Shown: positions 33,481 to 48,937, numbered from the stretch's first letter. The stretch is DNA of 64,000 bases from Escherichia coli (GCF_044647545.1 NZ_CP172818.1), one strand, 5' to 3'. Notes: generated by a model from the sequence alone, not told the origin. Made by a program: numbers and translations.

Positions 33481-36400
33481 ATGAAACACTTTATCTATCA
33501 GGACGAAAAATCACATAAATTCTGGGCGGTGGAGCAGCAGGGAAACGAGTTGCATATCTGTTGGGGAAAAGTTGGCACCAAAGGGCAAAACCAGGTAAAA
33601 AGTTTTGCGGATGCTGCGGCGGCGGAAAAAGCGGAGCTGAAGCTGATTGCGGAGAAGGTGAAGAAGGGATATGTGGAGCAAGCGAAGGATAATTCTTTGC
33701 AACCTTCCCAAACGGTAACGGACTCTCTCAAGGTAGCGGACTTATCCACCATTATTCAGGAACAACCCTCTTTCGTAGCAGAAACCCGTGCGGCTGACAA
33801 AAATACAGACGTTATTTTACCGTGGCTGGCAAAAGATATTGCTGTCGTTTTTCCGCTTGAAGTCGTACCCACCACCTTAAGCCATCGCCGCTTTCCCGGA
33901 GATCCTGTTACACCTGTAGATAAATTAACCCAGTTACGTCGCTTAGCCTGTGGCGTGTCGCAACGGGATAACAAAACAGCTACATTTGACTTCAGCGCCT
34001 GTACTTTAGAGTGGCAAAACTTCATCGCTCAGGCGATCGATCTGATTAACAGCCCGAAAACGACAAAATTACCATCACCGGTAATGGCTGTACTCGCGGC
34101 ACTTGAACTGCACTGTACGAGATATAAAGAGCGTGAGGATGTTATGGATCAGATTATTCAGGAAGGCGGTCTGGAATATGCTACTGATGTAATAATACAT
34201 CTTCAACAAATATCTATTGAATGGGATTATGTCAACAATAATATTGTTTTCCTGTCGTCTGGCATTTCACCTGATTACTTGCAGCAATATTCCAGCTTTG
34301 AATTACGCCTACGTAAACATTTATCACTGGCGGAAGAGTCTCTCTGGCAAAAATGTGCACAAAAACTTATTGCCGCAGTTCCACATATTCCAGAATGGCG
34401 GCAACCATTAATTGCTTTGTTATTACCCGAAAAACCAGAAATTGCACATGAAATTGCCCAGCGTCTACTGGGGCAAAAGAAATTACCCTCGCTTGAGTGG
34501 CTAAAAATAGTGGCGACTGATGAGCACATTCTTGCCTCATTAGAAAAATATCACGAGCCATATGCCATTTTTGATGATTACTATTGTGGTGCGATATGGT
34601 CAGCCACCGTATTACAGGAGCAAGGTGTTGCAGCCCTGCCCCGATTTGCACCCTATGTCGCAAGTGACTACTGCGCCGATGTGTTGAGTCATATCAATCA
34701 TCCGTTCGCATTAACACTGCTTATACGTGTAGCCGGGCATACTAAACGCTGTCACGATCGAATGACGAAAGCCTGCGCTGCGTTCCCACACGCAGCACTG
34801 GCAGCACTGGCGGAACTTCTAGTGCAAAAAGAAGAGAATAGTTGGCGCATTATGCTAATGACGATGCTTATCTCGCAACCTACACTAGCAGAACAGGTCA
34901 TTCCCTGGCTTTCGACACCCGCAGTTGCAGTGCTGAAATCATGCCAGCAACAACTGAAACAGCCCTCAAACCATGCCAGTGCCGATCTACTGCCGGCCAT
35001 AGTAGTCTCCCCACCATGGCTTTCGAAAAAGAAAAAATCGCCGATTCCGGTGCTTGATTTAGCACCGCTCAACCTCGAATCCATATGCACAATAACCGAC
35101 ACAGAAGCTAAAGAGTTTCAAACTCATTGGGACTGGGAACCGCATAAGCCAGGTGAAGGTGCTAAAGATTTCCTTTACTCGCTGGGGTATCGCCGCTGGG
35201 ATTTTGACACATATAAATATATCGGCGCTTCTGACTCGGCAATTGACGCATGGGAACGTGAGGACTTCGCTACACTCATCCAAATGTTTAAAGCCCACCA
35301 TGCACCGTATCAGGGGGAGTGGCATCTCAACTCACTTCCCTTTTTACCTATGCAAAAAGCGATTAAACTATGGGAATTTCTCAGCAAAGAGCCGCATACC
35401 GCGGTAAAACCTGTCATGCTTTATTTGCGACTGGCAGGTATGAGTGGTTTTCTACACTCGTTTTCACGCTACCCTCAAGAAGGTTTTGCGGTTGCTAATT
35501 ATTTTGCCGCAACGGAACTGGCTCCTGCCGTCGCCCGCGCCTTTAACAAACTCAAAACTCTACGACAAGACGCCCGCACCTGGCTGCTGAAATATCCGGA
35601 ACATGCCATTACCGGCCTGTTGCCTGCGGCACTCGGCAAAGCCGGTGAATCCCAGGATAACGCCCGTGCCGCTTTACGTATGTTGATTGAAAATGGTTAT
35701 CCGTCATTACTGCAAGAAATCGCCCAGCGTTATAACCAGCCGGAAGTAACCGATGCGGTGAACGCTCTACTTGCGCTCGATCCCTTAGATAATCACCCGA
35801 CTAAAATCCCGACACTTCCGGCCTTTTATCAGCCATCGCTCTGGACGCGCCCGGTATTAAAAGCAAACGCCCAATCACTGCCAGATAGCGCCCTCTTCCA
35901 CCTCGGTGAAATGCTCCGCTTCCCTCAGGAAGATACGCTGTATCCGGGGTTATTACAGGTGAAAGACGCCTGTACTGCCGACTCACTGGCTGAGTTTGCC
36001 TGGGATCTGTTTACCGCCTGGCAGACCGCTGGCGTGCCGTCGAAAGAGAGCTGGGCGTTCACTGCATTAGGTGTTCTTGGCAACGGTGACACCGCCCGCA
36101 AACTGACGCCATTAATCCGCGCCTGGCCTGGCGAATCTCAGCATAAACGTGCCACCGTTGGGTTGGATATTCTCGCTGCTATCGGCAGCGATATCGCCCT
36201 GATGCAGCTTAACGGCATCGCCCAGAAACTGAAATTCAAAGCCTTACAGGAGCGGGCGAAAGAAAAAATTGCCGACATTGCCGAAAGTCGCGAACTCACA
36301 GTGGCAGAACTTGAAGATCGGTTAGCACCGGATCTCGGTCTGGATGATAACGGTTCGCTGCTGCTGGATTTCGGGCCACGGCAGTTCACCGTCAGCTTTG

Positions 36401-37269
36401 ATGAAACCTTAAAACCGTTTGTGCGTGATGCTTCCGGCAGCCGCCTGAAAGACTTGCCTAAACCGAACAAAAGCGATGATGAAACCCAAGCGAACGATGC
36501 AGTTAACCGCTACAAACTGTTGAAAAAAGATGCGCGTACCGTTGCCGCCCAGCAGGTAGCAAGGCTGGAATCCGCCATGTGCCTACGCCGCCACTGGTCG
36601 CCGGAAAACTTCCAGCTATTCCTGGTTGAGCATCCGCTGGTTCGCCACTTAACCCGCCGTCTGATTTGGGGCGTTTATAGCACCGAAAACGAGCTACTGG
36701 CCTGTTTCCGGGTGGCAGAAGATAACAGCTACAGCACCGCTGACGATGATCTTTTCACCCTGCCGGAAGGCGATATCTCTATTGGTATTCCTCACGTTCT
36801 GGAAATATCACCGACGGATGCCGCCGCCTTTGGTCAGCTTTTTGCCGACTACGAACTTTTACCGCCGTTCCGTCAGCTCGACCGCAACAGTTATGCCCTG
36901 ACTGAAGTCGAACGCAACGCCAGCGAACTAACCCGCTGGGCAGGCAGAAAATGCCCGAGCGGTCGGGTTATGGGGCTGTCGAATAAAGGCTGGGTGCGTG
37001 GTGAACCGCAGGACGGTGGCTGGATCGGCTGGATGATCAAACCTCTGGGCCGCTGGTCATTAATCATGGAAATCGATGAAGGATTTGCAGTTGGTATGTC
37101 GCCAGCCGAACTCAGTGCCGAGCAACTCTTAAGCAAGCTGTGGCTATGGGAAGGCAAAGCAGAAAGCTATGGCTGGGGGAGTCATTCAACACAGGAAGCG
37201 CAGTTCTCCGCACTCGATGACATCACCGCCAGCGAGTTGATTAACGATATTGAAGCCCTGTTTGAATAA
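33481..37269 (+). CDS. molR: Giant WGR-domain + DUF4132 protein MolR (intact form of the K-12 molR/yehG-yehH pseudogene)
   Basis: 1262 aa single ORF; N-terminal WGR-like segment (HKFWAVEQQGNELHICWGKVGTKGQ); remainder collinear with yehI. Confidence 0.85.
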   Translation: MKHFIYQDEKSHKFWAVEQQGNELHICWGKVGTKGQNQVKSFADAAAAEKAELKLIAEKVKKGYVEQAKDNSLQPSQTVTDSLKVADLSTIIQEQPSFVAETRAADKNTDVILPWLAKDIAVVFPLEVVPTTLSHRRFPGDPVTPVDKLTQLRRLACGVSQRDNKTATFDFSACTLEWQNFIAQAIDLINSPKTTKLPSPVMAVLAALELHCTRYKEREDVMDQIIQEGGLEYATDVIIHLQQISIEWDYVNNNIVFLSSGISPDYLQQYSSFELRLRKHLSLAEESLWQKCAQKLIAAVPHIPEWRQPLIALLLPEKPEIAHEIAQRLLGQKKLPSLEWLKIVATDEHILASLEKYHEPYAIFDDYYCGAIWSATVLQEQGVAALPRFAPYVASDYCADVLSHINHPFALTLLIRVAGHTKRCHDRMTKACAAFPHAALAALAELLVQKEENSWRIMLMTMLISQPTLAEQVIPWLSTPAVAVLKSCQQQLKQPSNHASADLLPAIVVSPPWLSKKKKSPIPVLDLAPLNLESICTITDTEAKEFQTHWDWEPHKPGEGAKDFLYSLGYRRWDFDTYKYIGASDSAIDAWEREDFATLIQMFKAHHAPYQGEWHLNSLPFLPMQKAIKLWEFLSKEPHTAVKPVMLYLRLAGMSGFLHSFSRYPQEGFAVANYFAATELAPAVARAFNKLKTLRQDARTWLLKYPEHAITGLLPAALGKAGESQDNARAALRMLIENGYPSLLQEIAQRYNQPEVTDAVNALLALDPLDNHPTKIPTLPAFYQPSLWTRPVLKANAQSLPDSALFHLGEMLRFPQEDTLYPGLLQVKDACTADSLAEFAWDLFTAWQTAGVPSKESWAFTALGVLGNGDTARKLTPLIRAWPGESQHKRATVGLDILAAIGSDIALMQLNGIAQKLKFKALQERAKEKIADIAESRELTVAELEDRLAPDLGLDDNGSLLLDFGPRQFTVSFDETLKPFVRDASGSRLKDLPKPNKSDDETQANDAVNRYKLLKKDARTVAAQQVARLESAMCLRRHWSPENFQLFLVEHPLVRHLTRRLIWGVYSTENELLACFRVAEDNSYSTADDDLFTLPEGDISIGIPHVLEISPTDAAAFGQLFADYELLPPFRQLDRNSYALTEVERNASELTRWAGRKCPSGRVMGLSNKGWVRGEPQDGGWIGWMIKPLGRWSLIMEIDEGFAVGMSPAELSAEQLLSKLWLWEGKAESYGWGSHSTQEAQFSALDDITASELINDIEALFE

Positions 37270-37278
37270 GGAAAGAAC

Positions 37279-40200
37279 ATGGACAAGGAATTACCGTGGC
37301 TGGCGGATAACGCCCAACTGGAACTGAAATATAAAAAAGGCAAAACACCACTCAGCCATCGCAATTGGCCGGGCGAACCGGTGCCTGTTATCACTGAAAA
37401 CCTCATCCAGACACTGGGTGATAAATTGCTACACATTGCTGAGAAGAAAAAAAACATTGTCTGGCGTTATGAAAATTTTTCACTGGAATGGCAGTCCGCC
37501 ATCACGCAGGCCATCAACTTGATCGGCGAGCACAAACCCTCAATTCCGGCCCGGACAATGGCGGCGCTAGCCTGTATCGCGCAAAATGATAGCCAACAGT
37601 TACTCGACGAAATCGTCCAACAAGAGGGACTGGAATATGCGACTGAAGTGGTGATTGCACGCCAGTTTATTGTACGGTGTTATGAGAGTGATCCTCTGGT
37701 AGTAACATTGCAGTATCAGAAGGAGGACTATGGCTATGGCTATGGCTATGGTTATCGCTCAGAAACCTATAACGAATTCGATCTCCGACTGCGTAAGCAT
37801 CTCTCTCTGGCAGAGGAAAGCTGCTGGCAGCGTTGCGCCGACAAACTCATTGCCGCACTGCCAGGACTACCCCAAGTTCGCCGTCCTTTTATTGCACTCA
37901 TCCTCCCGGAAAAACCAGAAATCGCCAATGAGTTGGTAGGCCTTGAATGCCCGTGGACTCATTTTCATTCTAAGGAGTGGTTAAAAGTTGTTGCTACTGA
38001 CCACAGGGCAGTGGGAAAACTCGAACGCTACTGGAGCCAGGATATATTTAGCGATCGCGAAGCCAGCTACATGTCGCATGAAAACCACTTCGGCTACGCG
38101 GCCTGCGCCGCCCTTTTGCGCGAACAAGGAATTGCAGCCGTTCCACGCCTCGCGATGTATGCCCATAAAGAAGATTGCGGTAGCCTGCTGGTAAAAATTA
38201 ACCATCCGCAGGTCATCCGCACCCTGCTGTTAGTTGCTGATAAAAACAAACCCAGCCTGCAACGTGTGGCTAAATACAGTAAAAACTTCCCCCATGCGAC
38301 GCTTGCCGCACTGGCAGAGCTTCTGGCGTTAAAAGAACCGCCTGCACGCCCTGGTTATCCAATCATCGAAGACAAAAAGCTGCCTGCACAGCAAAAAGCT
38401 CGAGATGAATACTGGCGTACGCTGTTACAAACGCTGATGGCATCGCAGCCACAACTGGCAGAAGAGGTGATGCCGTGGTTAAGTACTCAAGCCCAGGCAG
38501 TGCTGGATAGTTATTTATCGGCACCGCCCAAAACGGTTATTGATAGCACCGATAACATCCAAATGCCTGAAATCCTCGTTTCACCACCGTGGCGTAGTAA
38601 GAAAAAAATGACAGTTCCACGTCTTGATTTGGCACCGTTCGAATTAACGCCGCAAGTTTACTGGCAACCAGGCGAACGAGAGAGGCTTGCCGCCACTGAG
38701 TCTGCCCGTTATTTCAGCACGGAATCTCTTGCGGAACGCATGGAACAAAAAAGTGGACGAGTTGTATTACAGGAGCTGGGTTTTGGAGATGATGTATGGC
38801 TGTTTTTGAATTATATACTCCCCGGAAAACTGGATGCTGCACGCAATTCACTCATTGTTCAGTGGCATTACTACCCAGGGCGGGTTGAAGAGATCATGAA
38901 TGGCTGGAGCTCCCCGGAAGCTCAATTAGCAGAACAGGCGCTTCGCAACGGTCACGTAGAAGTGTTAATTAACATATGGGAAAATGACAGCTACTCACGC
39001 TATCGTCGGGAAAAGAGTATCTGGAACCTGTATTTATTGGCGCAGTTGCCGCGTGAGATGGCTTTGACTTTCTGGCTACGTATCAATGAGAAAAAGCATC
39101 TGTCTGCGGGAGAGGACTATTTTCTCAGTATCTTCGGATTGGATGCTCTACCAGGTCTGCTGTTGGCTTTTTCACATCGTCCAAAAGAAACATTTCCATT
39201 AATTTTAAATTTCGGCGCAACAGAACTGGCCCTGCCCGTTGCCCGCGTCTGGCGACGTTTCGCGGCGCAGCGTGATCTGGCTCGCCAGTGGATTTTACAT
39301 TGGTCGGAACATACAGCTACTGCACTTATCCCTCTTGTCTTCACCAAATCCAGCGATAATAGCGAAGCTGCATTACTTGCCCTGCGTTTACTTTACGAAC
39401 AGGGACATGGCGAGTTACTGCAAACCGTGGCAAACCGCTGGCAGCGTACAGATGTATGGCCTGCCCTGGAGCAATTACTTAAACAGAGTCCAATAGAGAT
39501 TTACCCGACACGCATTCCAAAAGCCCCTGATTTCTGGCAGCCGGCAATGTGGTCCAGACCGAGACTTATCACGAATAATCAACCTGTTACTGATGATGCT
39601 CTGGAAATTATCGGCGAAATGCTGCGCTTTACCCAGGGCGGACGTTTTTATTGTGGGCTGGAACAACTGAAAACGTTCTGCCAGCCACAAACGCTGGCCG
39701 CTTTTGCCTGGGATCTCTTTACCGCGTGGCAACAAGTTGGCGCCCCCGCAAAAGACAACTGGGCATTTCTGGCGTTAAGTCTCTTCGGTGACGAAAGCAC
39801 GGCTCGGGATCTGACAACACAGATCCTCGCCTGGCCACAGGAAGGCAAATCTGCCCGTGCCGTCAGTGGCCTGAACATACTTACCCTGATGAATAATGAT
39901 ATGGCGCTGATACAGCTGCATCATATATCGCAACGGGCGAAATCCCGTCCCTTACGTGATAACGCGGCGGAATTTCTTCAGGTGGTCGCAGAAAATCGTG
40001 GACTAAGCCAGGAAGAGTTAGCGGACAGATTAGTCCCAACACTGGGCCTGGATGATCCGCAGGCGTTGATATTTGATTTTGGTCCCCGGCAGTTTACCGT
40101 TCGCTTCGATGAAAACCTCAACCCGGTTATCTTTGATCAGCAAAACGTTCGCCAGAAAAGCATTCCCCGGTTGCGCGCCGATGACGATCAGCTGAAAGCG

Positions 40201-40923
40201 CCCGAGGCTCTGGCCCGACTTAAAGGGCTAAAAAAAGATGCCACTCAGGTGAGCAAAAACCTGCTCCCGCGTCTTGAAACAGCCCTACGCACCACCCGAC
40301 GCTGGTCGCTGGCAGATTTTCATTCTCTGTTTGTTAATCATCCCTTTACCCGTCTGGTTACCCAGCGATTAATATGGGCGGTTTATCCAGCAAATGAACC
40401 GCGTCGTTTACTCAACGCCTTTCGTGTGGCCGCAGAGGGGGAATTCTGCAACGCACAAGATGAGCCAATTGACCTGCCTGCCGATGCCCTGATTGGCATT
40501 GCCCACCCGTTAGAAATGACAGCAGAAATGCGCAGTGAATTTGCACAGCTTTTTGCCGATTACGAAATTATGCCGCCTTTTCGCCAGTTGACGCGGCGCA
40601 CAGTGCTGCTCACGCCTGACGAGTCAGCCAGTAATAGTTTGAATCGCTGGGAAGGTAAATCTGCTACCGTTGGGCAACTTATGGGAATGCGATACAAAGG
40701 CTGGGAGTCAGGCTATGAGAACGCATTTGTCTATGACCTGGGCGAGTACCGGCTGGTCCTTAAGTTTTCATCCGGTTTTAACCACTACAATGTTGATAGC
40801 AAAGCGCTAATGAGCTTCCGTTCTCTTCATGTATACCGTGACAATAAATCTGTCACTTTTGCCGAACTTGATGTGTTTGATTTGAGTGAAGCGTTAAGCG
40901 CACCCGACGTCATTTTCCATTAA
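37279..40923 (+). CDS. yehI: Giant DUF4132 protein YehI, tandem paralog of MolR lacking the WGR domain
   Basis: 1214 aa; long collinear similarity to MolR (DLRLRKHLSLAEES.WQ.CA.KLIAA.P ... FPHA.LAALAELL ... FGPRQFTV.FDE); internal GYGYGYGY repeat. Confidence 0.85.
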   Translation: MDKELPWLADNAQLELKYKKGKTPLSHRNWPGEPVPVITENLIQTLGDKLLHIAEKKKNIVWRYENFSLEWQSAITQAINLIGEHKPSIPARTMAALACIAQNDSQQLLDEIVQQEGLEYATEVVIARQFIVRCYESDPLVVTLQYQKEDYGYGYGYGYRSETYNEFDLRLRKHLSLAEESCWQRCADKLIAALPGLPQVRRPFIALILPEKPEIANELVGLECPWTHFHSKEWLKVVATDHRAVGKLERYWSQDIFSDREASYMSHENHFGYAACAALLREQGIAAVPRLAMYAHKEDCGSLLVKINHPQVIRTLLLVADKNKPSLQRVAKYSKNFPHATLAALAELLALKEPPARPGYPIIEDKKLPAQQKARDEYWRTLLQTLMASQPQLAEEVMPWLSTQAQAVLDSYLSAPPKTVIDSTDNIQMPEILVSPPWRSKKKMTVPRLDLAPFELTPQVYWQPGERERLAATESARYFSTESLAERMEQKSGRVVLQELGFGDDVWLFLNYILPGKLDAARNSLIVQWHYYPGRVEEIMNGWSSPEAQLAEQALRNGHVEVLINIWENDSYSRYRREKSIWNLYLLAQLPREMALTFWLRINEKKHLSAGEDYFLSIFGLDALPGLLLAFSHRPKETFPLILNFGATELALPVARVWRRFAAQRDLARQWILHWSEHTATALIPLVFTKSSDNSEAALLALRLLYEQGHGELLQTVANRWQRTDVWPALEQLLKQSPIEIYPTRIPKAPDFWQPAMWSRPRLITNNQPVTDDALEIIGEMLRFTQGGRFYCGLEQLKTFCQPQTLAAFAWDLFTAWQQVGAPAKDNWAFLALSLFGDESTARDLTTQILAWPQEGKSARAVSGLNILTLMNNDMALIQLHHISQRAKSRPLRDNAAEFLQVVAENRGLSQEELADRLVPTLGLDDPQALIFDFGPRQFTVRFDENLNPVIFDQQNVRQKSIPRLRADDDQLKAPEALARLKGLKKDATQVSKNLLPRLETALRTTRRWSLADFHSLFVNHPFTRLVTQRLIWAVYPANEPRRLLNAFRVAAEGEFCNAQDEPIDLPADALIGIAHPLEMTAEMRSEFAQLFADYEIMPPFRQLTRRTVLLTPDESASNSLNRWEGKSATVGQLMGMRYKGWESGYENAFVYDLGEYRLVLKFSSGFNHYNVDSKALMSFRSLHVYRDNKSVTFAELDVFDLSEALSAPDVIFH

Positions 40924-40983
40924 AACACAGCGGGCAGTGATGCGACTGCCCGTTATTAACACGACCTGCCACCGGGGGAAGCG

Positions 40984-41304
40984 ATGATCGTGCAAAAAGA
41001 GCTGGTCACTATTTACGATTATGAGGCCCCTGTACCTGAAGAGCCGTTTTCCTTCAGACTTGAGATCCATAAATGCTCTGAATTATTTACAGGTTCCATC
41101 TACCGGCTGGAGCGATTCCGGCTACATCCAACATTTCATCAACGTGATCGAGAGGATATCGACCCGCTAATAAATGATGCGTTGATTTATATAAGAGATG
41201 AGTTTATTGATGAGCGAAAATTACGGGGCGAATCACCAGAAACGGTAATAGCCATTTTTAATCGTGAACTACAGAATATATTCAACCAAGAAATAGAAAA
41301 ATAG
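40984..41304 (+). CDS. yehK: Small uncharacterized protein YehK
   Basis: 106 aa; no recognisable domain; AT-rich codon usage unlike neighbours; hairpin terminator immediately downstream (~41309-41336). Confidence 0.7.
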   Translation: MIVQKELVTIYDYEAPVPEEPFSFRLEIHKCSELFTGSIYRLERFRLHPTFHQRDREDIDPLINDALIYIRDEFIDERKLRGESPETVIAIFNRELQNIFNQEIEK

Positions 41305-41469
41305 CTTTATTAAAGGGGGAAACGGTATTCCCCTTTAGATGTGTTTTATTTTCCCGTTACTCAAAAAAATAAATAAACCGAAAAAAAGCCACTAATAGCT
41401 CCAGTACGGAAATAAGCAGGGTTAATTTTTTGTCAGTGTGTCCATCCCTTCTCTTTATAAAGGAGGGCA

Positions 41470-41560
41470 ACACCACTTTTTACCTACCCCCCCCTTTATT
41501 TTTTTTATTCGAACCATTTCCCCCCCGAAGGCCCCCCCCCCCCCCCCCCAACCCTTGAAA
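41470..41560. other. Anomalous low-complexity stretch with poly-C (17 nt), poly-T and C-rich runs; probable sequencing/assembly artefact
   Basis: Direct reading: ...tacctacccccccctttattttttttattcgaaccatttcccccccgaaggcccccccccccccccccaaccc...; same character as the 3856-4550 anomaly. Confidence 0.55.
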
Positions 41561-41704
41561 TGGGTTCGATCCGGCGCAACGTCCCAACAGTCAGGATTAT
41601 AAATCTCATTATCTTAATTGCAACGGGGTCCACCGATGGTTATAATTCGTTCGTTGGAACACGATGTTGCACAGGCCGTGGTGTTAGGCCTGAAAGTAGT
41701 AAAT

Positions 41705-41738
41705 AAAAGAACCTGCCTCACCAGCAGGTTTTTTTATT
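41705..41738 (+). terminator. Rho-independent terminator-like hairpin upstream of yehL
   Basis: AACCTGC-CTCACCA-GCAGGTT followed by T7; ~110 bp upstream of yehL start. Confidence 0.55.
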
Positions 41739-41846
41739 TACTGTGATCTGTTTCCCAGATATTTTCCGCTCAAACAACTAATGCGCCAAACATTTATTGC
41801 GCGTAAAATATCGTTTATTTCATTAATACATTTCAGGGATGAATAT

Positions 41847-42935
41847 ATGTCACCGCAGAATAATCATCTGCAGCGTCCGCCTGTCGCTGTGTTATACGCC
41901 GATGAACTGGCAAAATTAAAACAAAATGATCACGCACCTTGCCCGCCCGGTTGGCAGTTAAGTTTGCCTGCGGCCCGTGCTTTTATCCTTGGCGATAGCG
42001 CGCAAAATATTAGCCGTAAAGTGGTGATTAGTCCCTCCGCTGTCGAACGCATGTTAGTCACTCTTGCCACCGGGCGCGGTTTGATGTTGGTGGGGGAACC
42101 TGGCACCGCAAAATCTCTCCTGTCTGAATTACTGGCAACCGCTATTAGCGGCGATGCCGGGTTAACCATCCAGGGCGGCGCATCTACCACTGAAGATCAA
42201 ATCAAGTACGGCTGGAACTACGCTCTGCTTATCAACCATGGTCCGTCAACGGAAGCACTGGTCCCTGCCCCGCTTTACCAGGGAATGCGCGACGGCAAAA
42301 TCGTCCGTTTTGAAGAGATAACGCGTACACCGCTGGAAGTACAAGACTGTCTGTTAGGTATGCTTTCTGACAGGGTAATGACGGTGCCGGAACTCACTGG
42401 TGAAGCCAGTCAGCTCTATGCGCGAGAAGGCTTTAATATTATTGCCACTGCCAATACCCGCGATCGCGGCGTCAATGAAATGAGCGCTGCGCTAAAGCGT
42501 CGATTCGATTTTGAAACGGTCTTTCCGATTATGGATTTCGCCCAGGAACTGGAACTGGTCGCCAGTGCTTCGGCGCGTTTATTGGCCCATAGTGGCATTC
42601 CGCATAAAGTGCCTGACGCGGTACTGGAGTTACTGGTACGCACCTTCCGCGATCTGCGTGCCAACGGCGAAAAGAAAACGTCAATGGATACACTGACAGC
42701 GATTATGTCCACCGCTGAAGCCGTGAACGTAGCCCACGCTGTGGGTGTCCGCGCCTGGTTTTTAGCGAATCGCGCAGGTGAGCCAGCCGATCTGGTGGAC
42801 TGTATTGCCGGAACCATCGTTAAAGATAACGAAGAAGATCGCGCTCGTCTGCGCCGTTACTTCGAACAGCGTGTCGCCACACATAAAGAAGCTCACTGGC
42901 AGGCTTATTATCAAGCCCGCCACCGCCTGCCGTGA
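41847..42935 (+). CDS. yehL: MoxR-family AAA+ ATPase YehL
   Basis: 362 aa from MSPQNNHLQRPP; Walker A LVGEPGTAKS; Walker B region IVRFEEITRTPLEVQDCLLGML; MoxR-like C-terminal helical region. Confidence 0.88.
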   Translation: MSPQNNHLQRPPVAVLYADELAKLKQNDHAPCPPGWQLSLPAARAFILGDSAQNISRKVVISPSAVERMLVTLATGRGLMLVGEPGTAKSLLSELLATAISGDAGLTIQGGASTTEDQIKYGWNYALLINHGPSTEALVPAPLYQGMRDGKIVRFEEITRTPLEVQDCLLGMLSDRVMTVPELTGEASQLYAREGFNIIATANTRDRGVNEMSAALKRRFDFETVFPIMDFAQELELVASASARLLAHSGIPHKVPDAVLELLVRTFRDLRANGEKKTSMDTLTAIMSTAEAVNVAHAVGVRAWFLANRAGEPADLVDCIAGTIVKDNEEDRARLRRYFEQRVATHKEAHWQAYYQARHRLP

Positions 42936-42945
42936 GGAAAGATGC

Positions 42946-45225
42946 ATGAGCGAGCCGTTAATTGTCGGCATCCGGCATCATAGCCCGGCCTGCGCCCGGC
43001 TGGTGAAATCGTTAATCGAAAGCCAGCGGCCACGATACGTGTTGATTGAAGGCCCGGCTGATTATAATGACCGGGTAGACGAACTGTTTTTAGCCCACCA
43101 GCTTCCGGTAGCTATTTACAGTTATTGCCAGTATCAGGACGGTGCAGCCCCCGGGCGTGGTGCCTGGACGCCATTTGCTGAATTTTCGCCGGAGTGGCAG
43201 GCGCTACAAGCCGCTCGTCGTATTCAGGCACAAACTTACTTCATCGATTTGCCTTGCTGGGCGCAGAGTGAAGAAGAGGACGATTCGCCTGATACGCATG
43301 AGGAAAGCCAGACCTTGCTGCTGCATGCCACCCGCATGGATAACAGCGACACCCTGTGGGATCACTTGTTCGAAGATGAAAGCCAGCAAACTGCATTACC
43401 CTCTGCACTGGCGCACTATTTTGCCCAACTGCGGGGCGACTCCCCCGGAGATGCTCTCAATCGTCAGCGCGAAGCCTTTATGGCCCGCTGGATTGCATGG
43501 GCGATGCAGCAAAATAATGGCGACGTGTTAGTTGTCTGCGGTGGCTGGCACGCTCCGGCACTGGCAAAAATGTGGCGCGAATGCCCGCAAGAAATTAACA
43601 AGCCAGAATTGCCGTCGCTGGCAGATGCCGTTACAGGTTGCTATCTCACGCCATACAGTGAAAAGCGCCTTGATGTGCTGTCAGGATACCTTTCAGGAAT
43701 GCCTGCCCCGGTCTGGCAAAACTGGTGCTGGCGGTGGGGCTTGCAGCAGGCAGGTGAACAACTACTGAAAACGGTTCTTACCCGTTTGCGCCAGCACCAC
43801 TTGCCTGCTTCAACAGCGGATATGGCTGCCGCTCATCTGCATGCGATGGCACTGGCACAGTTGCGCGGTCATACACTACCGTTACGCACTGACTGGCTGG
43901 ATGCTATAGCCGGCTCGCTGATCAAAGAAGCCCTGAACGCGCCGTTGCCGTGGAGCTATCGCGGCGTTATTCATCCCGATACCGATCCGATTCTGCTAAC
44001 GTTGATAGACACATTAGCGGGTGACGGATTCGGTAAACTTGCCCCCTCGACGCCACAGCCACCTCTGCCAAAAGATGTCACCTGCGAACTGGAACGTACC
44101 GGAATCTCTTTTCCGGCGGAGCTTACCTTAAATCGCTTTACCCCCGATGGACTGGCGCAAAGTCAGGTGTTACATCGGCTGGTAATACTGGAGATCCCAG
44201 GGGTTGTGCGCCAGCAGGGAAGTACACTGACACTTGCAGGCAACGGTGAAGAACGCTGGAAATTAACCCGCCCGCTTAGCCAACATGCGGCATTAATTGA
44301 GGCCGCCTGCTTTGGTGCCACACTCCAGGAAGCCGCACGCCATAAATTAGAAGCCGATATGCTGGACGCGGGTGGAATCGGCAGTATCACCACATGTCTT
44401 AGCCAGGCGGCGTTAGCGGGTCTGGCGTCCTTCAGTCAACAATTACTGGAGCAACTTACATTATTAATCGCCCAGGAAAATCAGTTTGCCGAAATGGGCC
44501 AGGCGCTGGAAGTGCTATACGCCTTATGGCGGCTGGATGAAATTAGCGGTATGCAAGGCGCGCAGATATTACAGACGACGTTATGCGCAGCTATCGATCG
44601 CACACTCTGGCTGTGTGAATCCAACGGCAGACCGGATGAAAAGGAGTTTCACGCTCACCTGCATAGCTGGCAAGCGCTTTGCCATATCCTGCGCGATCTA
44701 CATAGCGGCGTTAATTTACCCGGCGTTTCGCTTTCTGCGGCGGTAGCCTTACTGGAGCGCCGCAGTCAGGCGATTCATGCCCCGGCGCTGGATCGCGGCG
44801 CGGCTCTTGGCGCACTAATGCGTCTGGAACATCCCAACGCCAGTGCCGAAGCGGCGCTGACGATGCTGGCGCAGTTATCCCCGGCACAATCCGGCGAGGC
44901 GCTGCACGGTTTGCTGGCATTAGCCCGTCATCAACTGGCCTGTCAGCCGGCATTTATCGCCGGTTTCAGTAGTCATTTAAATCAACTGAGTGACGACGAT
45001 TTTATTAACGCCCTGCCCGATTTACGCGCGGCGATGGCCTGGCTACCACCACGAGAACGCGGGACGCTGGCGCATCAGGTGCTTGAGCATTACCAGCTCG
45101 CACAGCTTCCCATTTCAGCGCTGCAAATGCCGTTGCATTGTCCACCGCAAGCCATTGCACATCATCAACAACTCGAACAGCAGGCACTGGCATCGCTGCA
45201 ACACTGGGGAGTTTTCCATGTCTGA
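42946..45225 (+). CDS. yehM: Large uncharacterized protein YehM
   Basis: 759 aa from MSEPLIVGIRHHSPA (ATG at 42946, 10 bp after yehL stop); no domain I can assign; stop overlaps yehP start. Confidence 0.8.
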   Translation: MSEPLIVGIRHHSPACARLVKSLIESQRPRYVLIEGPADYNDRVDELFLAHQLPVAIYSYCQYQDGAAPGRGAWTPFAEFSPEWQALQAARRIQAQTYFIDLPCWAQSEEEDDSPDTHEESQTLLLHATRMDNSDTLWDHLFEDESQQTALPSALAHYFAQLRGDSPGDALNRQREAFMARWIAWAMQQNNGDVLVVCGGWHAPALAKMWRECPQEINKPELPSLADAVTGCYLTPYSEKRLDVLSGYLSGMPAPVWQNWCWRWGLQQAGEQLLKTVLTRLRQHHLPASTADMAAAHLHAMALAQLRGHTLPLRTDWLDAIAGSLIKEALNAPLPWSYRGVIHPDTDPILLTLIDTLAGDGFGKLAPSTPQPPLPKDVTCELERTGISFPAELTLNRFTPDGLAQSQVLHRLVILEIPGVVRQQGSTLTLAGNGEERWKLTRPLSQHAALIEAACFGATLQEAARHKLEADMLDAGGIGSITTCLSQAALAGLASFSQQLLEQLTLLIAQENQFAEMGQALEVLYALWRLDEISGMQGAQILQTTLCAAIDRTLWLCESNGRPDEKEFHAHLHSWQALCHILRDLHSGVNLPGVSLSAAVALLERRSQAIHAPALDRGAALGALMRLEHPNASAEAALTMLAQLSPAQSGEALHGLLALARHQLACQPAFIAGFSSHLNQLSDDDFINALPDLRAAMAWLPPRERGTLAHQVLEHYQLAQLPISALQMPLHCPPQAIAHHQQLEQQALASLQHWGVFHV

Positions 45226-46354
45226 ACTGAACGATCTTCTGACCACCCGTGAGCTACAACGCTGGCGATTAATTCTTGGCGAAGCGGCAGAAACGACGCT
45301 TTGTGGGCTGGATGACAACGCCCGGCAGATAGACCACGCGCTGGAGTGGCTGTACGGGCGCGATCCTGAACGGCTCCAGCGTGGTGAACGCTCCGGTGGA
45401 TTAGGTGGCTCAAATCTCACCACCCCTGAGTGGATCAACAGTATTCACACGCTGTTTCCGCAACAGGTGATTGAACGGCTGGAAAGCGATGCCGTACTGC
45501 GCTACGGCATTGAAGATGTGGTGACAAATCTCGACGTGCTGGAACGTATGCAGCCTTCGGAAAGCCTGCTACGCGCCGTTTTGCACACCAAACATCTGAT
45601 GAATCCCGAAGTACTGGCTGCCGCCCGCCGGATAGTACGCCAGGTTGTGGAAGAAATTATGGCGCGACTGGCAAAGGAAGTTCGTCAGGCTTTTTCTGGT
45701 GTCCGCGATCGCCGTCGCCGCTCATTTATTCCACTGGCGCGAAACTTTGATTTCAAAAGTACTCTGCGCGCCAACCTGCAACACTGGCACCCGCAACACG
45801 GCAAGTTGTATATCGAATCCCCCCGCTTTAACAGCCGCATTAAACGCCAAAGCGAACAATGGCAACTGGTCTTACTGGTTGATCAAAGCGGATCAATGGT
45901 GGACTCGGTGATCCACTCAGCGGTGATGGCGGCCTGTTTATGGCAGTTACCCGGTATTCGTACCCATCTGGTGGCGTTTGACACCAGCGTGGTTGATCTC
46001 ACGGCAGACGTTGCCGATCCGGTAGAGTTATTAATGAAAGTGCAATTAGGCGGCGGAACCAATATCGCCAGTGCCATGGAATATGGTCGGCAACTTATTG
46101 AACAACCAGCGAAAAGCGTCATCATCCTCGTGAGCGATTTTTACGAAGGGGGTTCATCATCATTACTGACGCATCAGGTGAAAAAGTGTGTCCAGAGCGG
46201 CATCAAAGTGCTGGGACTGGCGGCGCTCGATAGCACCGCAACACCTTGCTATGACCACGATACGGCCCAGGCGCTAGTTAATGTCGGCGCACAAATAGCC
46301 GCCATGACACCGGGCGAGCTGGCGGCCTGGCTTGCGGAGAATCTTCAGTCATGA
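45218..46354 (+). CDS. yehP: von Willebrand factor A (VWA) domain protein YehP
   Basis: 378 aa; C-terminal VWA with MIDAS DxSxS (LVLLVDQSGSM), further ...GGGTN... and ILVSDFYEGG; start ATG overlaps yehM stop (ATGTCTGA). Confidence 0.88.
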   Translation: MSELNDLLTTRELQRWRLILGEAAETTLCGLDDNARQIDHALEWLYGRDPERLQRGERSGGLGGSNLTTPEWINSIHTLFPQQVIERLESDAVLRYGIEDVVTNLDVLERMQPSESLLRAVLHTKHLMNPEVLAAARRIVRQVVEEIMARLAKEVRQAFSGVRDRRRRSFIPLARNFDFKSTLRANLQHWHPQHGKLYIESPRFNSRIKRQSEQWQLVLLVDQSGSMVDSVIHSAVMAACLWQLPGIRTHLVAFDTSVVDLTADVADPVELLMKVQLGGGTNIASAMEYGRQLIEQPAKSVIILVSDFYEGGSSSLLTHQVKKCVQSGIKVLGLAALDSTATPCYDHDTAQALVNVGAQIAAMTPGELAAWLAENLQS

Positions 46355-48351
46355 ATTCACTACGTCCGGAATTATTAGAACTGACGCCGCAGGCCCTGAC
46401 GGCGTTAAGCAATGCCGGTTTTGTTAAACGCAGTCTTAAGGAACTGGAAAATGGCAACGTCCCGGAAATCAGCCATAAGAACGGCGCTTTAATCGCCACC
46501 TTCAGTGACGGTGTCCGTACCCAGCTGGCGAACGGTCAGGCACTGAAAGAGGCTCAATGCAGCTGCGGGGCCAGCGGCATGTGCCGCCATCGCGTGATGC
46601 TGGTTTTAAGTTATCAGCGACTTTGCGCCACCACCCAGCCTACGGAAAAAGAAGAAGAGTGGGATCCGGCAATCTGGCTAGAAGAACTGGCTACCCTTCC
46701 CGATGCCACCCGCAAACGCGCGCAGGCGCTGGTCGCTAAAGGCATCACCATTGAGTTGTTCTGTACGCCGGGCGAAATTCCCTCTGCCCGCTTACCGATG
46801 AGCGATGTACGTTTTTATTCCCGCAGCAGCATTCGTTTCGCACGCTGTGATTGTATTGAAGGAACACTTTGCGAACATGTTGTGCTGGCAGTACAGGCCT
46901 TTGTCCAGGCCAAAGCGCAGCAAGCAGAATTTAACCATTTAATCTGGCAGATGCGCAGCGAACACGTCACATCATCTGACGATCCGTTTGCCAGCGAAGA
47001 GGGCAACGCGTGTCGTCAATATGTTCAGCAACTAAGCCAGGCATTATGGCTGAGCGGCATCAGCCAGCCGCTTATTCATTACGAGGCCGCTTTCAGCCGC
47101 GCGCAGCAAGCGGCGGAACGCTGCAACTGGCGCTGGGTAAGTGAATCACTACGACAGCTACGGGCAAGCGTTGATGCCTTCCACGCCCGCGCCAGTCACT
47201 ATCATGCCGGAGAATGCTTACGTCAGCTTGCGGCATTAAACAGTCGATTAAATTGCGCACAAGAGATGGCGCGGCGCGACAGTGTTGGTGAAGTTCCTCC
47301 TGTGCCGTGGCGCACGGTCGTTGGCGCTGGCATTGCCGGAGAAGCAAAGCTTGATCATCTGCGGCTGGTGTCTTTAGGTATGCGTTGCTGGCAGGATATT
47401 GAGCAGTATGGTTTACGCATCTGGTTCACCGATCCCGACACCGGCAGTATTTTGCATCTTTCGCGTAGTTGGCCGAGAAGCGAACAGGAAAATTCACCGG
47501 CAGCGACGCGTCGGCTGTTTAGTTTTCTGGCTGGCGCACTGGCAGGTGGGCAAATTGTTTCACAAGCAGCAAAACGCAGTGCCGATGGCGAACTGCTATT
47601 AGCTACCCGCAACCGCTTGAGTAGTGTTGTGCCGCTGTCGCCAGACGCCTGGCAAATGTTGAGCGCGCCATTGCGCCAGCCGGGCATTGTGGCTTTGCGG
47701 GAATATTTACGCCAGCGTCCCCCCGCCTGCATACGGCCTCTTAATCAGGTGGATAACTTATTTATTCTGCCAGTCGCTGAGTGTATTTCACTCGGTTGGG
47801 ATAGCAGCCGCCAGACACTGGATGCGCAGGTAATCAGCGGCGAAGGTGAAGATAACGTGCTGACATTATCCCTACCAGCCTCTGCCTGTTCGCCCTTTGC
47901 TGTTGAACGCATGGCGGCGCTTTTGCAACAAACAGACGACCCCGTGAGTCTGGTTTCTGGCTTTGTCAGCTTTGTAGAGGGGCAATTGACACTGGAACCA
48001 CGGGTGATGATGACAAAAAACCGCGCCTGGGCGCTGGACGCAGAAACTGCGCCTGTGGCACCGCTACCTTCTGCCAGCGTTTTGCCTGTGCCGTCTACCG
48101 CTCATCAGTTGCTGATGCGCTGCCAGGCGTTACTTATTCAACTGCTCCATAACGGCTGGCGCTATCAGGAACAGAGTGCTATTGGTCAGGCAGAGTTGCT
48201 GGCGAATGACCTCACCGCGGTGGGTTTTTATCGGCTGGCACATGTGTTGGCACAATTTCGTAATACAGAAAGCGAGGCACGGGTAGAAGCAATGAATAAC
48301 GGTGTTTTGATTTGCGAACAATTATTCCCCATGCTTCAGCAACAAGGATGA
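46351..48351 (+). CDS. yehQ: SWIM zinc-finger domain protein YehQ
   Basis: 666 aa as ORF; two CxC...CxH SWIM-like motifs (CSCGASGMCRHRVM and CDCIEGTLCEHVVLAV); start overlaps yehP stop (ATGA). Confidence 0.85.
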   Translation: MNSLRPELLELTPQALTALSNAGFVKRSLKELENGNVPEISHKNGALIATFSDGVRTQLANGQALKEAQCSCGASGMCRHRVMLVLSYQRLCATTQPTEKEEEWDPAIWLEELATLPDATRKRAQALVAKGITIELFCTPGEIPSARLPMSDVRFYSRSSIRFARCDCIEGTLCEHVVLAVQAFVQAKAQQAEFNHLIWQMRSEHVTSSDDPFASEEGNACRQYVQQLSQALWLSGISQPLIHYEAAFSRAQQAAERCNWRWVSESLRQLRASVDAFHARASHYHAGECLRQLAALNSRLNCAQEMARRDSVGEVPPVPWRTVVGAGIAGEAKLDHLRLVSLGMRCWQDIEQYGLRIWFTDPDTGSILHLSRSWPRSEQENSPAATRRLFSFLAGALAGGQIVSQAAKRSADGELLLATRNRLSSVVPLSPDAWQMLSAPLRQPGIVALREYLRQRPPACIRPLNQVDNLFILPVAECISLGWDSSRQTLDAQVISGEGEDNVLTLSLPASACSPFAVERMAALLQQTDDPVSLVSGFVSFVEGQLTLEPRVMMTKNRAWALDAETAPVAPLPSASVLPVPSTAHQLLMRCQALLIQLLHNGWRYQEQSAIGQAELLANDLTAVGFYRLAHVLAQFRNTESEARVEAMNNGVLICEQLFPMLQQQG

Positions 48352-48475
48352 AATAGTGCTTTTTACTAAGAGTTCTACTCCAGTTCCGGACTGCTCACGC
48401 CACAGTATTAGGCATATCCTATATAGCCCCTGGTGAGAGTCACCAGTTCCTTGATTAAATAAAATGGAGTTTTAC

Positions 48476-48937
48476 ATGAAGGCTTTCAATAAGCTGTTTT
48501 CCCTTGTTGTTGCATCTGTTCTGGTTTTCTCTCTTGCTGGCTGCGGTGACAAAGAAGAATCAAAGAAATTCAGCGCCAATCTGAACGGCACTGAAATTGC
48601 CATTACCTATGTCTACAAAGGTGACAAGGTGCTTAAGCAATCTTCTGAAACCAAAATTCAATTTGCCTCCATTGGTGCAACCACCAAAGAAGATGCCGCC
48701 AGGACACTTGAGCCGTTAAGCGCCAAATACAAAAACATCGCGGGTGTTGAAGAAAAATTAACCTATACCGATACCTACGCGCAGGAAAACGTGACTATTG
48801 ATATGGAAAAAGTGGATTTTAAAGCCCTGCAGGGTATTTCAGGAATCAACGTTTCTGCTGAAGATGCCAAAAAAGGTATCACTATGGCGCAAATGGAACT
48901 GGTGATGAAAGCCGCTGGTTTTAAAGAAGTGAAATAA
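48476..48937 (+). CDS. yehR: Lipoprotein YehR (DUF1307)
   Basis: 153 aa from MKAFNKLFSLVVASVLVFSLAGC (lipobox LAGC). Confidence 0.85.
   Translation: MKAFNKLFSLVVASVLVFSLAGCGDKEESKKFSANLNGTEIAITYVYKGDKVLKQSSETKIQFASIGATTKEDAARTLEPLSAKYKNIAGVEEKLTYTDTYAQENVTIDMEKVDFKALQGISGINVSAEDAKKGITMAQMELVMKAAGFKEVK

What the first reader, a model, noticed from the sequence alone, without database searches (positions are those of the whole stretch)
41847..48351. yehL-yehM-yehP-yehQ are translationally coupled (overlapping stop/start codons)
yehM stop overlaps yehP start (ATGTCTGA at 45218-45225) and yehP stop overlaps yehQ start (ATGA at 46351-46354); yehM begins 10 bp after yehL stop. Tight coupling implies co-expression and argues that ATPase, VWA and SWIM proteins form one complex with YehM. 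The YehL Walker B region reads FEEI rather than the DEI I expect for MoxR ATPases; whether this is family-typical needs alignment.
Basis: seen in the sequence. Interest (0 to 1): 0.6.

Follow-up and report, generated by a model that had tools for sequence, protein, structure and literature searches.

The report
Overlapping genes of the yehLMPQ operon
The four E. coli genes yehL, yehM, yehP and yehQ really do abut or overlap as described, which is ordinary for an operon, but comparison with about 80 other species shows they are a conserved, still uncharacterised ATP-driven protein machine that usually includes a fifth partner gene.

Summary
yehL is 41847-42935. yehM (42946-45225) starts 10 nt after the yehL stop. 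yehP (45218-46354) overlaps yehM by 8 nt (ATGTCTGA). yehQ (46351-48351) overlaps yehP by 4 nt (ATGA). RefSeq annotates the same starts.

Overlaps alone are commonplace in operons. The comparative evidence is much stronger:
- The order AAA+ (YehL), DUF5682 (YehM), CoxE-type VWA (YehP), SWIM (YehQ) is complete in 76 of 80 species from Proteobacteria, Myxococcota and Actinobacteria.
- Stop/start overlap motifs occur at 92% of M/P and 84% of P/Q junctions, against 7% of flanking gene pairs.
- YehM and YehP are fused into one protein in at least five divergent lineages.

One to several WGR/DUF4132 genes (here molR and yehI) sit directly upstream in 67 of 73 loci.

The "FEEI" Walker B is not a defect. 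VRFEEITR is invariant in 86 of 86 orthologues, alongside an intact Walker A.

The YehM model has a TraB/ChaN-like N-terminal domain. The biochemical function remains unknown.

This is a known, annotated operon and the namesake of the YehL subfamily of MoxR ATPases, so it is of modest interest.

The parts
33481..37269 (+). molR-like gene (1262 aa): N-terminal WGR domain plus C-terminal DUF4132. First of two upstream DUF4132 paralogues.
   Evidence: ORF. Pfam WGR 5e-17 and DUF4132 5e-50. A homologous gene lies directly upstream of the yehL homologue in 67/73 loci.
37279..40923 (+). yehI (1214 aa), the second DUF4132 paralogue, starting 9 nt after molR.
   Evidence: Pfam DUF4132 6e-47. RefSeq name.
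40984..41304 (+). yehK (106 aa), a lineage-specific insert between yehI and yehL. Not part of the conserved cassette.
   Evidence: Homologues were found only in the two E. coli sequences among 85 loci.
41660..41735 (+). OrzO/OrzP antitoxin sRNA with its terminator (hairpin 41697-41743), 104 nt upstream of the yehL ATG. It bounds the region where a yehL promoter can lie.
   Evidence: Rfam RF02083, 98.9 bits, E 5e-16. Promoter-like site at 41618-41646 and terminator.
41847..42935 (+). yehL, a MoxR-class AAA+ ATPase (AAA_5), 362 aa.
   Evidence: Pfam AAA_5 2.6e-34. The closest solved relatives by sequence are midasin AAA domains. 53-85% identical across four phyla.
42093..42116 (+). YehL Walker A, GEPGTAKS (residues 83-90).
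   Evidence: G83, P85, G86, T87, K89 and S90 are invariant in 86 orthologues.
42303..42326 (+). YehL variant Walker B, VRFEEITR (residues 153-160), with E156-E157 in place of the usual D-E.
   Evidence: R154, F155, E156, E157, T159 and R160 are 86/86. Aligns to LLDEI / VLDEL of midasin.
42933..42948 (+). yehL/yehM junction: TGA, a 10-nt spacer with GAGGA, then ATG.
   Evidence: In other species this junction is an overlap (40/82) or a 0-15 nt spacer (31/82).
42946..45225 (+). yehM, a DUF5682 protein of 759 aa. It has an N-terminal TraB/ChaN/EreA-like alpha/beta domain (about residues 1-240, nt 42946-43665), a middle region and a C-terminal alpha-solenoid.
45218..45225 (+). yehM/yehP junction: ATGTCTGA, an 8-nt overlap. 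GGAG Shine-Dalgarno at 45208-45211.
   Evidence: Overlap in 71/80 species, of which 56 are 4-nt and 5 are 8-nt.
45218..46354 (+). yehP, a CoxE-type VWA protein of 378 aa with an intact MIDAS motif (D222-x-S224-x-S226 at nt 45881-45895, plus T281 and D307).
   Evidence: Pfam VWA_CoxE 1e-71 over the full model. MIDAS residues are at least 95% conserved in 82 orthologues. Fused to DUF5682 in P0173, P0261, P0230, P0265 and P0273.
46351..46354 (+). yehP/yehQ junction: ATGA, a 4-nt overlap.
   Evidence: A 4-nt overlap in 60/80 species.
46351..48351 (+). yehQ, 666 aa, with two SWIM zinc fingers. SWIM-1 is C70, C72, C78, H80 (nt 46558-46590). SWIM-2 is about residues 160-183. These are followed by helical bundles and beta-rich (OB-like) domains.

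Best explanation
yehLMPQ is one operon encoding the subunits of a single MoxR-type AAA+/VWA remodelling machine. The overlapping or abutting stop and start codons are the usual operon device that keeps the subunits co-translated.

Shown:
- The junction geometry.
- Its conservation, and that of the gene order, across four phyla.
- Fusion of YehM with YehP in several lineages.
- An intact MIDAS motif in YehP.
- An intact Walker A, sensor-1 Asn and KRRF box in YehL, together with a family-invariant E-E Walker B.
- A conserved first SWIM finger in YehQ.

Inferred:
- YehL forms an active hexameric ATPase.
- YehP is the MIDAS-bearing adaptor that couples YehL to YehM, as ViaA, NorD and CobT/ChlD do for their ATPases.
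- YehM is the large scaffold or working subunit. Its N-terminal TraB/TIKI/ChaN-like domain carries invariant His and Glu residues, suggesting a metal-dependent hydrolase or ligand-binding site.
- YehQ is a recognition subunit.
- The WGR/DUF4132 proteins encoded directly upstream (MolR, YehI) are the clients or sensors.

The biochemical output is unknown.
For: - Junctions verified, with the same starts in RefSeq.
- No sigma-70-like promoter and no strong terminator inside 41847-48351.
- yehL and yehM are co-derepressed in an hns/stpA mutant, with H-NS bound upstream (PMC3686432).
- L-M-P-Q is complete in 76/80 species-level loci, and two of the other four are cut by contig ends.
- Overlap motifs at 92% (M/P), 84% (P/Q) and 62% (L/M) of junctions, against 7% in flanks.
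- DUF5682::VWA_CoxE fusions of about 1170-1180 aa fall in five clusters that are 33-45% identical to each other. Each of three clusters was seen in two assemblies. They sit between AAA_5 and SWIM genes.
- Walker A, E156/E157, N203 and R218/R219 are 86/86 conserved.
- MIDAS residues are at least 95% conserved.
- DUF4132 lies upstream on the same strand in 67/73 loci, often overlapping yehL (19/71).
Against: - No transcript, interaction or activity data exist for any of the four proteins in the searched literature.
- Overlaps are common in any operon and do not prove a complex.
- Junction RNAs have no unusual structure that would enforce coupling.
- The yehL promoter was not located.
- D-to-E in Walker B could alter or slow hydrolysis.
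- A reported +1 frameshift site inside yehP (PMC2790909) would, when used, uncouple yehQ translation.
Confidence: 0.7

Rival explanations
1. The cassette is a MoxR-vWA-based conflict or surveillance (for example anti-phage) system rather than a housekeeping maturation machine. WGR/DUF4132 and SWIM modules would sense an invader or a nucleic-acid signal. The ATPase-VWA pair would act as a threshold switch. The TraB/TIKI-like domain of YehM would be the effector.
For: - Variable copy number of upstream DUF4132 paralogues, 1 to 5 ORF hits per locus.
- WGR and SWIM are nucleic-acid or protein recognition domains in other contexts (own knowledge).
- The 80 best-scoring loci returned come mainly from Actinobacteria and Proteobacteria, with some Myxococcota, and the family was detected in at least 581 of about 100,000 species genomes.
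- H-NS silencing in E. coli.
- Kaur et al. 2020 derive MoxR-vWA conflict systems from CoxD-CoxE-type pairs.
- A weak bpMoxR Pfam hit, E 0.002.
Against: - No PADLOC family matches any of the six proteins.
- The locus is near-universal in E. coli (5403 of 5426 genomes), unlike typical accessory defence islands.
- YehP is only 378 aa, with the VWA_CoxE match running to residue 372, so there is no room for the variable C-terminal effector domains that define the Kaur et al. systems.
- That paper does not mention SWIM, DUF4132 or DUF5682.
Confidence: 0.2
2. The four genes are merely co-transcribed neighbours. The overlaps are a by-product of genome compaction, and the proteins act separately or sequentially without forming a stable complex.
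For: - 4-nt and 1-nt overlaps are the modal spacings in bacterial operons (established knowledge), and btsS/btsR nearby also overlap by 4 nt.
- No interaction data exist.
Against: - Order and overlaps are maintained across phyla, far above the flank background.
- YehM and YehP are covalently fused in five divergent lineages.
- MoxR ATPases characteristically bind their VWA partners (PMC3893208, PMC9976466; titles and abstracts).
Confidence: 0.15
3. YehL is a catalytically dead pseudo-ATPase because its Walker B aspartate is replaced by glutamate (FEEI).
For: The canonical hhhhDE motif is not met. E156 aligns with the Walker B Asp of midasin AAA domains.
Against: - E156 and E157 are invariant in 86/86 orthologues.
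- So are Walker A K89/S90, sensor-1 N203 and the KRRF box.
- Dead sites normally drift. Glu keeps the carboxylate needed for Mg2+ and water coordination (inference).
Confidence: 0.1

Closest known systems
YehL subfamily of MoxR AAA+ ATPases (Snider & Houry classification, as cited in PMC3893208 and PMC11432383)
   Same: This is the namesake protein: an AAA_5 ATPase encoded next to a VWA gene.
   Different: Nothing differs, because it is this family. The subfamily has no characterised member. I could not read the original description because the paper is not held.
CoxD-CoxE(-CoxF) maturation system of CO dehydrogenase
   Same: A MoxR-class ATPase paired with a CoxE-type VWA protein. YehP matches Pfam VWA_CoxE end to end at E 1e-71.
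   Different: There is no CO dehydrogenase or CoxF context. The extra conserved partners (DUF5682, SWIM, WGR/DUF4132) are absent from cox clusters (own knowledge). YehL has an E-E Walker B.
RavA-ViaA and NorQ-NorD (MoxR ATPase plus VWA adaptor)
   Same: A two-gene ATPase/VWA core in one operon. The VWA protein uses its MIDAS motif to bridge the ATPase and the client (PMC3893208, PMC9976466, PMC13036017).
   Different: Those are two-component systems with identified clients (respiratory complexes, cNOR). Here the core is split by a 759-aa DUF5682 gene and followed by a SWIM protein, and the client is unknown.
Three-subunit ATP-driven chelatases (ChlI/ChlD/ChlH; CobS/CobT/CobN)
   Different: YehM has no sequence similarity to ChlH or CobN. 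There is no tetrapyrrole pathway context.
Ternary MoxR-vWA conflict systems (Kaur, Burroughs, Iyer, Aravind 2020, PMC7159879)
   Same: A MoxR plus CoxE-like vWA pair joined by additional conserved components. The distribution is rich in Actinobacteria, with some Myxococcota.
   Different: The third components differ: VMAP, iSTAND or beta-propeller there, against DUF5682, SWIM and DUF4132 here. YehP has no effector domains fused to its VWA. The cassette is not described in that paper.
TraB/PrgY/TIKI/ChaN/EreA-like fold superfamily
   Different: There is no sequence-profile match. The equivalence of the His and Glu residues to the catalytic sites of that superfamily was not checked by superposition.

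Membership tests
MoxR / AAA_5 AAA+ ATPases | Pfam AAA_5 domain with a Walker A motif GxxGxGK[ST] | tested here: met
   AAA_5 2.6e-34 over 138 of 139 model positions. GEPGTAKS is invariant in 86 orthologues.
MoxR / AAA_5 AAA+ ATPases | Canonical Walker B, hhhhDE | tested here: not met
   The motif reads I-V-R-F-E-E. E156 occupies the Asp position (midasin alignment). E-E is 86/86 conserved, so this is a family-specific variant and not decay.
MoxR / AAA_5 AAA+ ATPases | Sensor-1 Asn and a conserved Arg box after it | tested here: met
   ATAN203 and K217-R218-R219-F220 are invariant. KRRF aligns to the RNRF of midasin. Which Arg is the arginine finger was not determined.
MoxR / AAA_5 AAA+ ATPases | Genomic association with a VWA-domain gene | tested here: met
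   yehP lies two genes downstream. This is conserved in 77 of 80 loci (76 with the full L-M-P-Q set plus L044, which keeps L-M-P).
MoxR / AAA_5 AAA+ ATPases | Hexameric ring with ATPase activity stimulated by the VWA partner | not testable with these tools
   This needs biochemistry or a multimer structure prediction.
VWA domain, CoxE type | MIDAS motif: DxSxS, then T, then D | tested here: met
   D222, S224, S226, T281 and D307 are each at least 95% conserved in 82 orthologues. VWA_CoxE 1e-71.
SWIM zinc finger | CxCx(n)CxH signature | tested here: met
   C70, C72, C78 and H80 are invariant. A second copy (C-D-C...C-E-H around residues 165-180) is present in E. coli but falls short of 95% conservation. 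Pfam E-values are weak (1e-3 and 0.2).
TraB/TIKI/ChaN/EreA-like superfamily (YehM N-terminal domain) | Shared alpha/beta fold | tested here: met
TraB/TIKI/ChaN/EreA-like superfamily (YehM N-terminal domain) | Paired GxxH and Glu active-site motifs at equivalent positions | tested here: inconclusive
   Invariant G8-x-R10-H11-H12, E35, H51 and G199-G200-x-H202 exist. No residue-level superposition was available. There is no sequence-profile hit.
Translationally coupled genes | Downstream start codon overlaps or abuts the upstream stop, with the Shine-Dalgarno inside the upstream gene | tested here: met
   GAGGA, GGAG and GGAG lie 7, 6 and 11 nt upstream of the yehM, yehP and yehQ starts.
Translationally coupled genes | Translation of the downstream gene depends on translation of the upstream gene | not testable with these tools
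   This needs reporter fusions with upstream nonsense mutations. Junction RNA folding is unremarkable.
Known anti-phage defence systems (PADLOC-DB 2.0) | Match to a defence-protein HMM | tested here: not met
   No families at E <= 0.01 for YehL, YehM, YehP, YehQ, YehI or YehK.
Ternary MoxR-vWA conflict systems (Kaur et al. 2020) | The vWA protein carries variable C-terminal effector domains, and the third component is VMAP, iSTAND or a beta-propeller | tested here: not met
   YehP is 378 aa and ends with the VWA domain. The partners are DUF5682, SWIM and DUF4132, none of which is mentioned in the paper.

The most novel reading that the evidence does not exclude
The conserved cassette [WGR/DUF4132]n - YehL - YehM - YehP - YehQ is a previously undescribed class of five-component MoxR-VWA machine. 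Its working subunit would be a TraB/TIKI-like metal-dependent hydrolase (YehM), gated by an ATPase with a unique E-E Walker B. Specificity would come from expandable WGR/DUF4132 and SWIM recognition proteins. That would make it either a new surveillance or defence system present in nearly every E. coli, or a new type of ATP-driven protein-processing or cofactor-insertion machine.
Probability: 0.25. Interest if true: 0.65.

Novelty: already known. Interest (0 to 1): 0.3.

Why it matters
As written, the finding matters little. Overlapping stop and start codons in an annotated E. coli operon are routine, and YehL already names a MoxR subfamily.

What is worth keeping is the comparative picture. 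It shows a tightly conserved four-to-five-gene module found in at least 581 species, with natural fusions that predict a YehM-YehP interaction, a family-invariant E-E Walker B, and a putative hydrolase-like domain in the DUF5682 protein.

E. coli has only two MoxR ATPases, and the other one (RavA) has been studied intensively. These results give concrete, testable handles on the uncharacterised one: point mutants, binding partners, and the H-NS-silenced condition in which to look.

Tried and rejected
- PADLOC scan of all six proteins: no hit.
- NCBIfam: only far-sub-threshold GvpN, MadB and McrB hits for YehL and cobaltochelatase for YehP.
- PDB sequence searches for YehM, YehP and YehQ, and a YehM profile search: nothing meaningful.
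- Foldseek of full-length YehM against PDB: no significant hit, dominated by alpha-solenoids.
- RNA folding of the three junctions and the yehL start, looking for a structure that sequesters the ribosome-binding site: z-scores from -1.1 to +0.95, so rejected.
- Literature searches for DUF5682, DUF4132 and yehLMPQ: no functional study. One search was swamped by unrelated 'yehi' words, and many 'yehL' hits are the author name Yehl.
- The Snider & Houry 2006 paper is not held.
- P0077 is not on record for a context look-up.
- E. coli 'fusion' singletons (P0001, P0004, P0009, P0010, P0013) were not used as evidence. They are single sequences more than 90% identical to the normal genes and are most simply frameshift or assembly errors at the overlapping junctions.
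- Reading the D-to-E Walker B as a dead ATPase: rejected as the leading view because of complete conservation.


Full report
**1. What is in the sequence**

The window is E. coli chromosome. Bases 40900-48500 are 99.6% identical to strain FDAARGOS_497 and others, and the locus is present in 5403 of 5426 complete E. coli genomes.

Four large ORFs lie head to tail on the + strand:
- yehL, 41847-42935
- yehM, 42946-45225
- yehP, 45218-46354
- yehQ, 46351-48351

- The yehL stop is TGA at 42933-35 and the yehM start is ATG at 42946. The 10-nt spacer is preceded by a GAGGA Shine-Dalgarno that overlaps the stop.
- ATGTCTGA at 45218-45225 is an 8-nt overlap of yehM and yehP.
- ATGA at 46351-46354 is a 4-nt overlap of yehP and yehQ.

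RefSeq annotates the same four starts in the near-identical genome. Homologues begin at the same N-terminal positions.

**2. Domains**

- YehL is an AAA_5 (MoxR/dynein-related) ATPase (Pfam 2.6e-34).
- YehM is DUF5682 (6e-99).
- YehP is a CoxE-type VWA protein that matches the whole model (1e-71).
- YehQ has two weak SWIM hits.

The literature names YehL as one of the MoxR subfamilies and as one of only two MoxR ATPases in E. coli K-12 (PMC3893208; PMC11432383). I found no functional study of DUF5682, DUF4132 or the operon.

**3. Are the overlaps meaningful?**

Inside one genome they are not remarkable. Such overlaps are the modal spacing in operons (established knowledge), and btsS/btsR next door do the same.

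I therefore looked elsewhere. A profile of YehM homologues (A2) found relatives in at least 581 of about 100,000 species-representative genomes. Eighty loci were fetched, from Gamma- and Betaproteobacteria, Myxococcota/Deltaproteobacteria and many Actinobacteria.

Searching all ORFs of these loci with the E. coli proteins gave the following:
- The order L-M-P-Q is complete in 76 of 80 loci.
- Two of the other four are cut by contig ends.

With start codons chosen by homology rather than by proximity:
- M/P overlaps in 71/80 (56 by 4 nt, 5 by 8 nt as in E. coli).
- P/Q overlaps in 64/80 (60 by 4 nt).
- L/M overlaps in 40/82, and another 31 have a 0-15 nt spacer.

A start-independent test for a canonical -4/-1/-8 motif gives 92%, 84% and 62% for the three junctions. 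The figure is 7% (37/533) for co-directional ORF pairs in the flanks of the same loci. That control is crude because spurious ORFs dilute it.

So tight junctions are a conserved property of this cassette and not an accident of E. coli.

**4. Evidence for physical association**

Among the 50%-identity cluster representatives that match YehM (2270 with E <= 0.001), several are about 1170-1180 aa long.

BLASTP shows that P0173, P0261 (and P0269), P0230 (and P0270), P0265 and P0273 (and P0205) are DUF5682 followed by a full-length YehP-like VWA_CoxE domain.
- These fusions are only 33-45% identical to each other over their full length.
- Three of them were seen in two independent assemblies.
- In loci L004 and L005 they sit exactly between an AAA_5 gene and a SWIM or YehQ-like gene.

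This is a classical Rosetta-stone argument that YehM and YehP work as one unit.

Nothing comparable was found for YehL or YehQ, apart from a single unverified DUF5682 + YehQ-like sequence (P0225). I discounted the E. coli "fusions" as probable frameshift artefacts.

**5.

In 67 of 73 loci with enough upstream sequence, one or more DUF4132 genes lie directly upstream of the yehL homologue on the same strand. Many of them carry an N-terminal WGR domain. The I/L junction overlaps in 19 of 71 cases and has a spacer of at most 15 nt in 13 more.

In a betaproteobacterial-type locus (L002) the five genes are packed with 8-nt and 10-nt spacers and two 4-nt overlaps.

The window has two such genes:
- a molR-like gene, 33481-37269 (WGR + DUF4132);
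- yehI, 37279-40923 (DUF4132).

In E. coli they are separated from yehL by two inserts:
- yehK, which is lineage-specific;
- a zorO-orzO type I toxin-antitoxin locus. OrzO sRNA is at 41660-41735 (Rfam, 98.9 bits), with divergent promoter-like sites at 41596-41646 and a terminator at 41697-41743.

**6. Walker B**

YehL reads I-V-R-F-E-E-I-T-R. HMMER alignments to midasin AAA domains put F-E-E-I opposite L-D-E-I, so the Walker B Asp is replaced by Glu.

In 86 orthologues from four phyla the following are all invariant:
- R154, F155, E156, E157, T159 and R160;
- Walker A (GEPGTAKS);
- sensor-1 N203;
- the K-R-R-F box.

E-E is therefore a hallmark of the YehL family. It departs from the AAA_5 norm, but it is not a sign of inactivation.

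**7. The other proteins**

YehP keeps a complete MIDAS motif (D222-x-S-x-S226, T281, D307; at least 95% conserved).

The first SWIM finger of YehQ (C70, C72, C78, H80) is invariant.

An AlphaFold2 model of YehM (pLDDT 90, pTM 0.85) has three regions:
- A middle region that picks up BchI, dynein and MCM fragments.
- A C-terminal alpha-solenoid resembling Vps35 and PP2A-A.

The N-terminal domain carries the family's invariant residues: G8-x-R10-H11-H12-S-P, E35, H51, D101 and G199-G200-x-H202. This pattern is reminiscent of the paired GxxH/Glu motifs of the TIKI/TraB superfamily (own knowledge). It was not verified by superposition, Foldseek with the full chain was not significant, and no sequence-profile link exists.

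The YehQ model (pLDDT 90.4) gave only generic helical-bundle, OB-fold and ZSWIM8 similarities.

**8. Expression**

The consensus scan finds no sigma-70-like promoter and no convincing terminator between 41847 and 48351. The only two promoter-like sites in 40900-48600 belong to zorO/orzO.

In K-12, H-NS binds the intergenic region upstream, and yehL and yehM are both de-repressed in an hns/stpA mutant (PMC3686432).

The whole molR-yohC block is deleted in the genome-reduced strain DGF-298, so the operon is dispensable in the laboratory.

RNA folding around the three internal starts is unremarkable. If coupling exists, it works by ribosome proximity and re-initiation rather than by unmasking a structured ribosome-binding site.

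**9. Interpretation**

The best-supported view is that yehLMPQ encodes one MoxR-VWA remodelling machine. YehP (VWA/MIDAS) is attached to YehM. YehL is an active ATPase with a family-specific Walker B. YehQ and the upstream WGR/DUF4132 proteins are recognition or client components.

The architecture of AAA+ motor, VWA bridge and large working subunit parallels RavA-ViaA, NorQ-NorD, CoxD-CoxE and the three-subunit chelatases (for the literature).

Whether the output is maturation of a client protein or a conflict or surveillance function cannot be decided here. PADLOC is negative, and the locus is core rather than accessory in E. coli. On the other side, the expandable DUF4132 paralogues, H-NS silencing and the patchy distribution (at least 581 of about 100,000 species genomes, many of the sampled loci actinobacterial) keep the second reading alive.

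**10. Verdict**

Co-function is strongly supported, a YehM-YehP association is supported, and a four-protein complex and true translational coupling remain untested.
- The Walker B question is answered.

The operon is annotated and its ATPase already names a subfamily, so the finding itself is ordinary. The uncharacterised conserved cassette behind it is moderately interesting.

Noticed in passing
window 41596-41743 (+ and - strands): A zorO-orzO type I toxin-antitoxin locus sits between yehK and yehL. OrzO sRNA is at 41660-41735 (Rfam RF02083, 98.9 bits), with divergent promoter-like sites (TTGCAA-N17-TATAAT on +, TTGCAA-N16-TATAAT on -) and its terminator 104 nt upstream of the yehL start.
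   Followed up: partly
window 41335-41575: A homopolymer-rich stretch (an 18-C run, plus poly-T and poly-A) with a 31-bp gap relative to FDAARGOS_497. It is only 77% identical to the best of 5,426 complete E. coli genomes, while the flanks are 99.6% identical. It covers the zorO toxin ORF and its 5' UTR. The 29-aa ZorO ORF of the reference (L001 6459-6548) has lost its start codon here. It looks like a low-quality or assembly artefact in the source record, but real decay is not excluded.
   Followed up: partly
window 33481-37269: An intact 1262-aa molR-like gene (WGR + DUF4132), 9 nt upstream of yehI. In K-12 derivatives molR is listed as split fragments (molR'; 'molR in PMC10652928)..
   Followed up: partly
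window 46077-46092 (inside yehP): [quoted passage not shown] This changes positions 1 and 6 and removes the GGAG stimulator. Frameshifting there would end translation about 225 nt before yehQ and uncouple it.
   Followed up: partly
L005 14598-21543: A second, unfused copy of the system (AAA_5, DUF5682, VWA_CoxE) lies just downstream of the fused copy. It is preceded by a HEAT_2 repeat protein instead of a DUF4132 protein.
   Followed up: no
proteins P0169, P0175, P0223 (Yinghuangia, Streptomyces, Kitasatospora): Actinobacterial DUF5682 proteins of 1060-1178 aa. They carry an insertion of several hundred residues in the middle of the YehM-like sequence, not a VWA fusion.
   Followed up: no
protein P0225 (ENA, 1185 aa): A single sequence that joins a DUF5682 region (residues 4-632) to a YehQ-like region (757-1117; 29% identity to YehQ 123-500). 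It may be a YehM::YehQ fusion or an assembly artefact.
   Followed up: no
L032 and L044: Two loci lack a detectable part of the cassette despite about 10 kb of downstream sequence. L032 (Betaproteobacteria) lacks P and Q, and L044 (Deltaproteobacteria MAG) lacks Q. These may be degenerate or rearranged versions.
   Followed up: no
window 48352-48477: No terminator-like hairpin was found between the yehQ stop (48351) and the yehR start (about 48477). Whether yehR is read through from yehQ is open.
   Followed up: no
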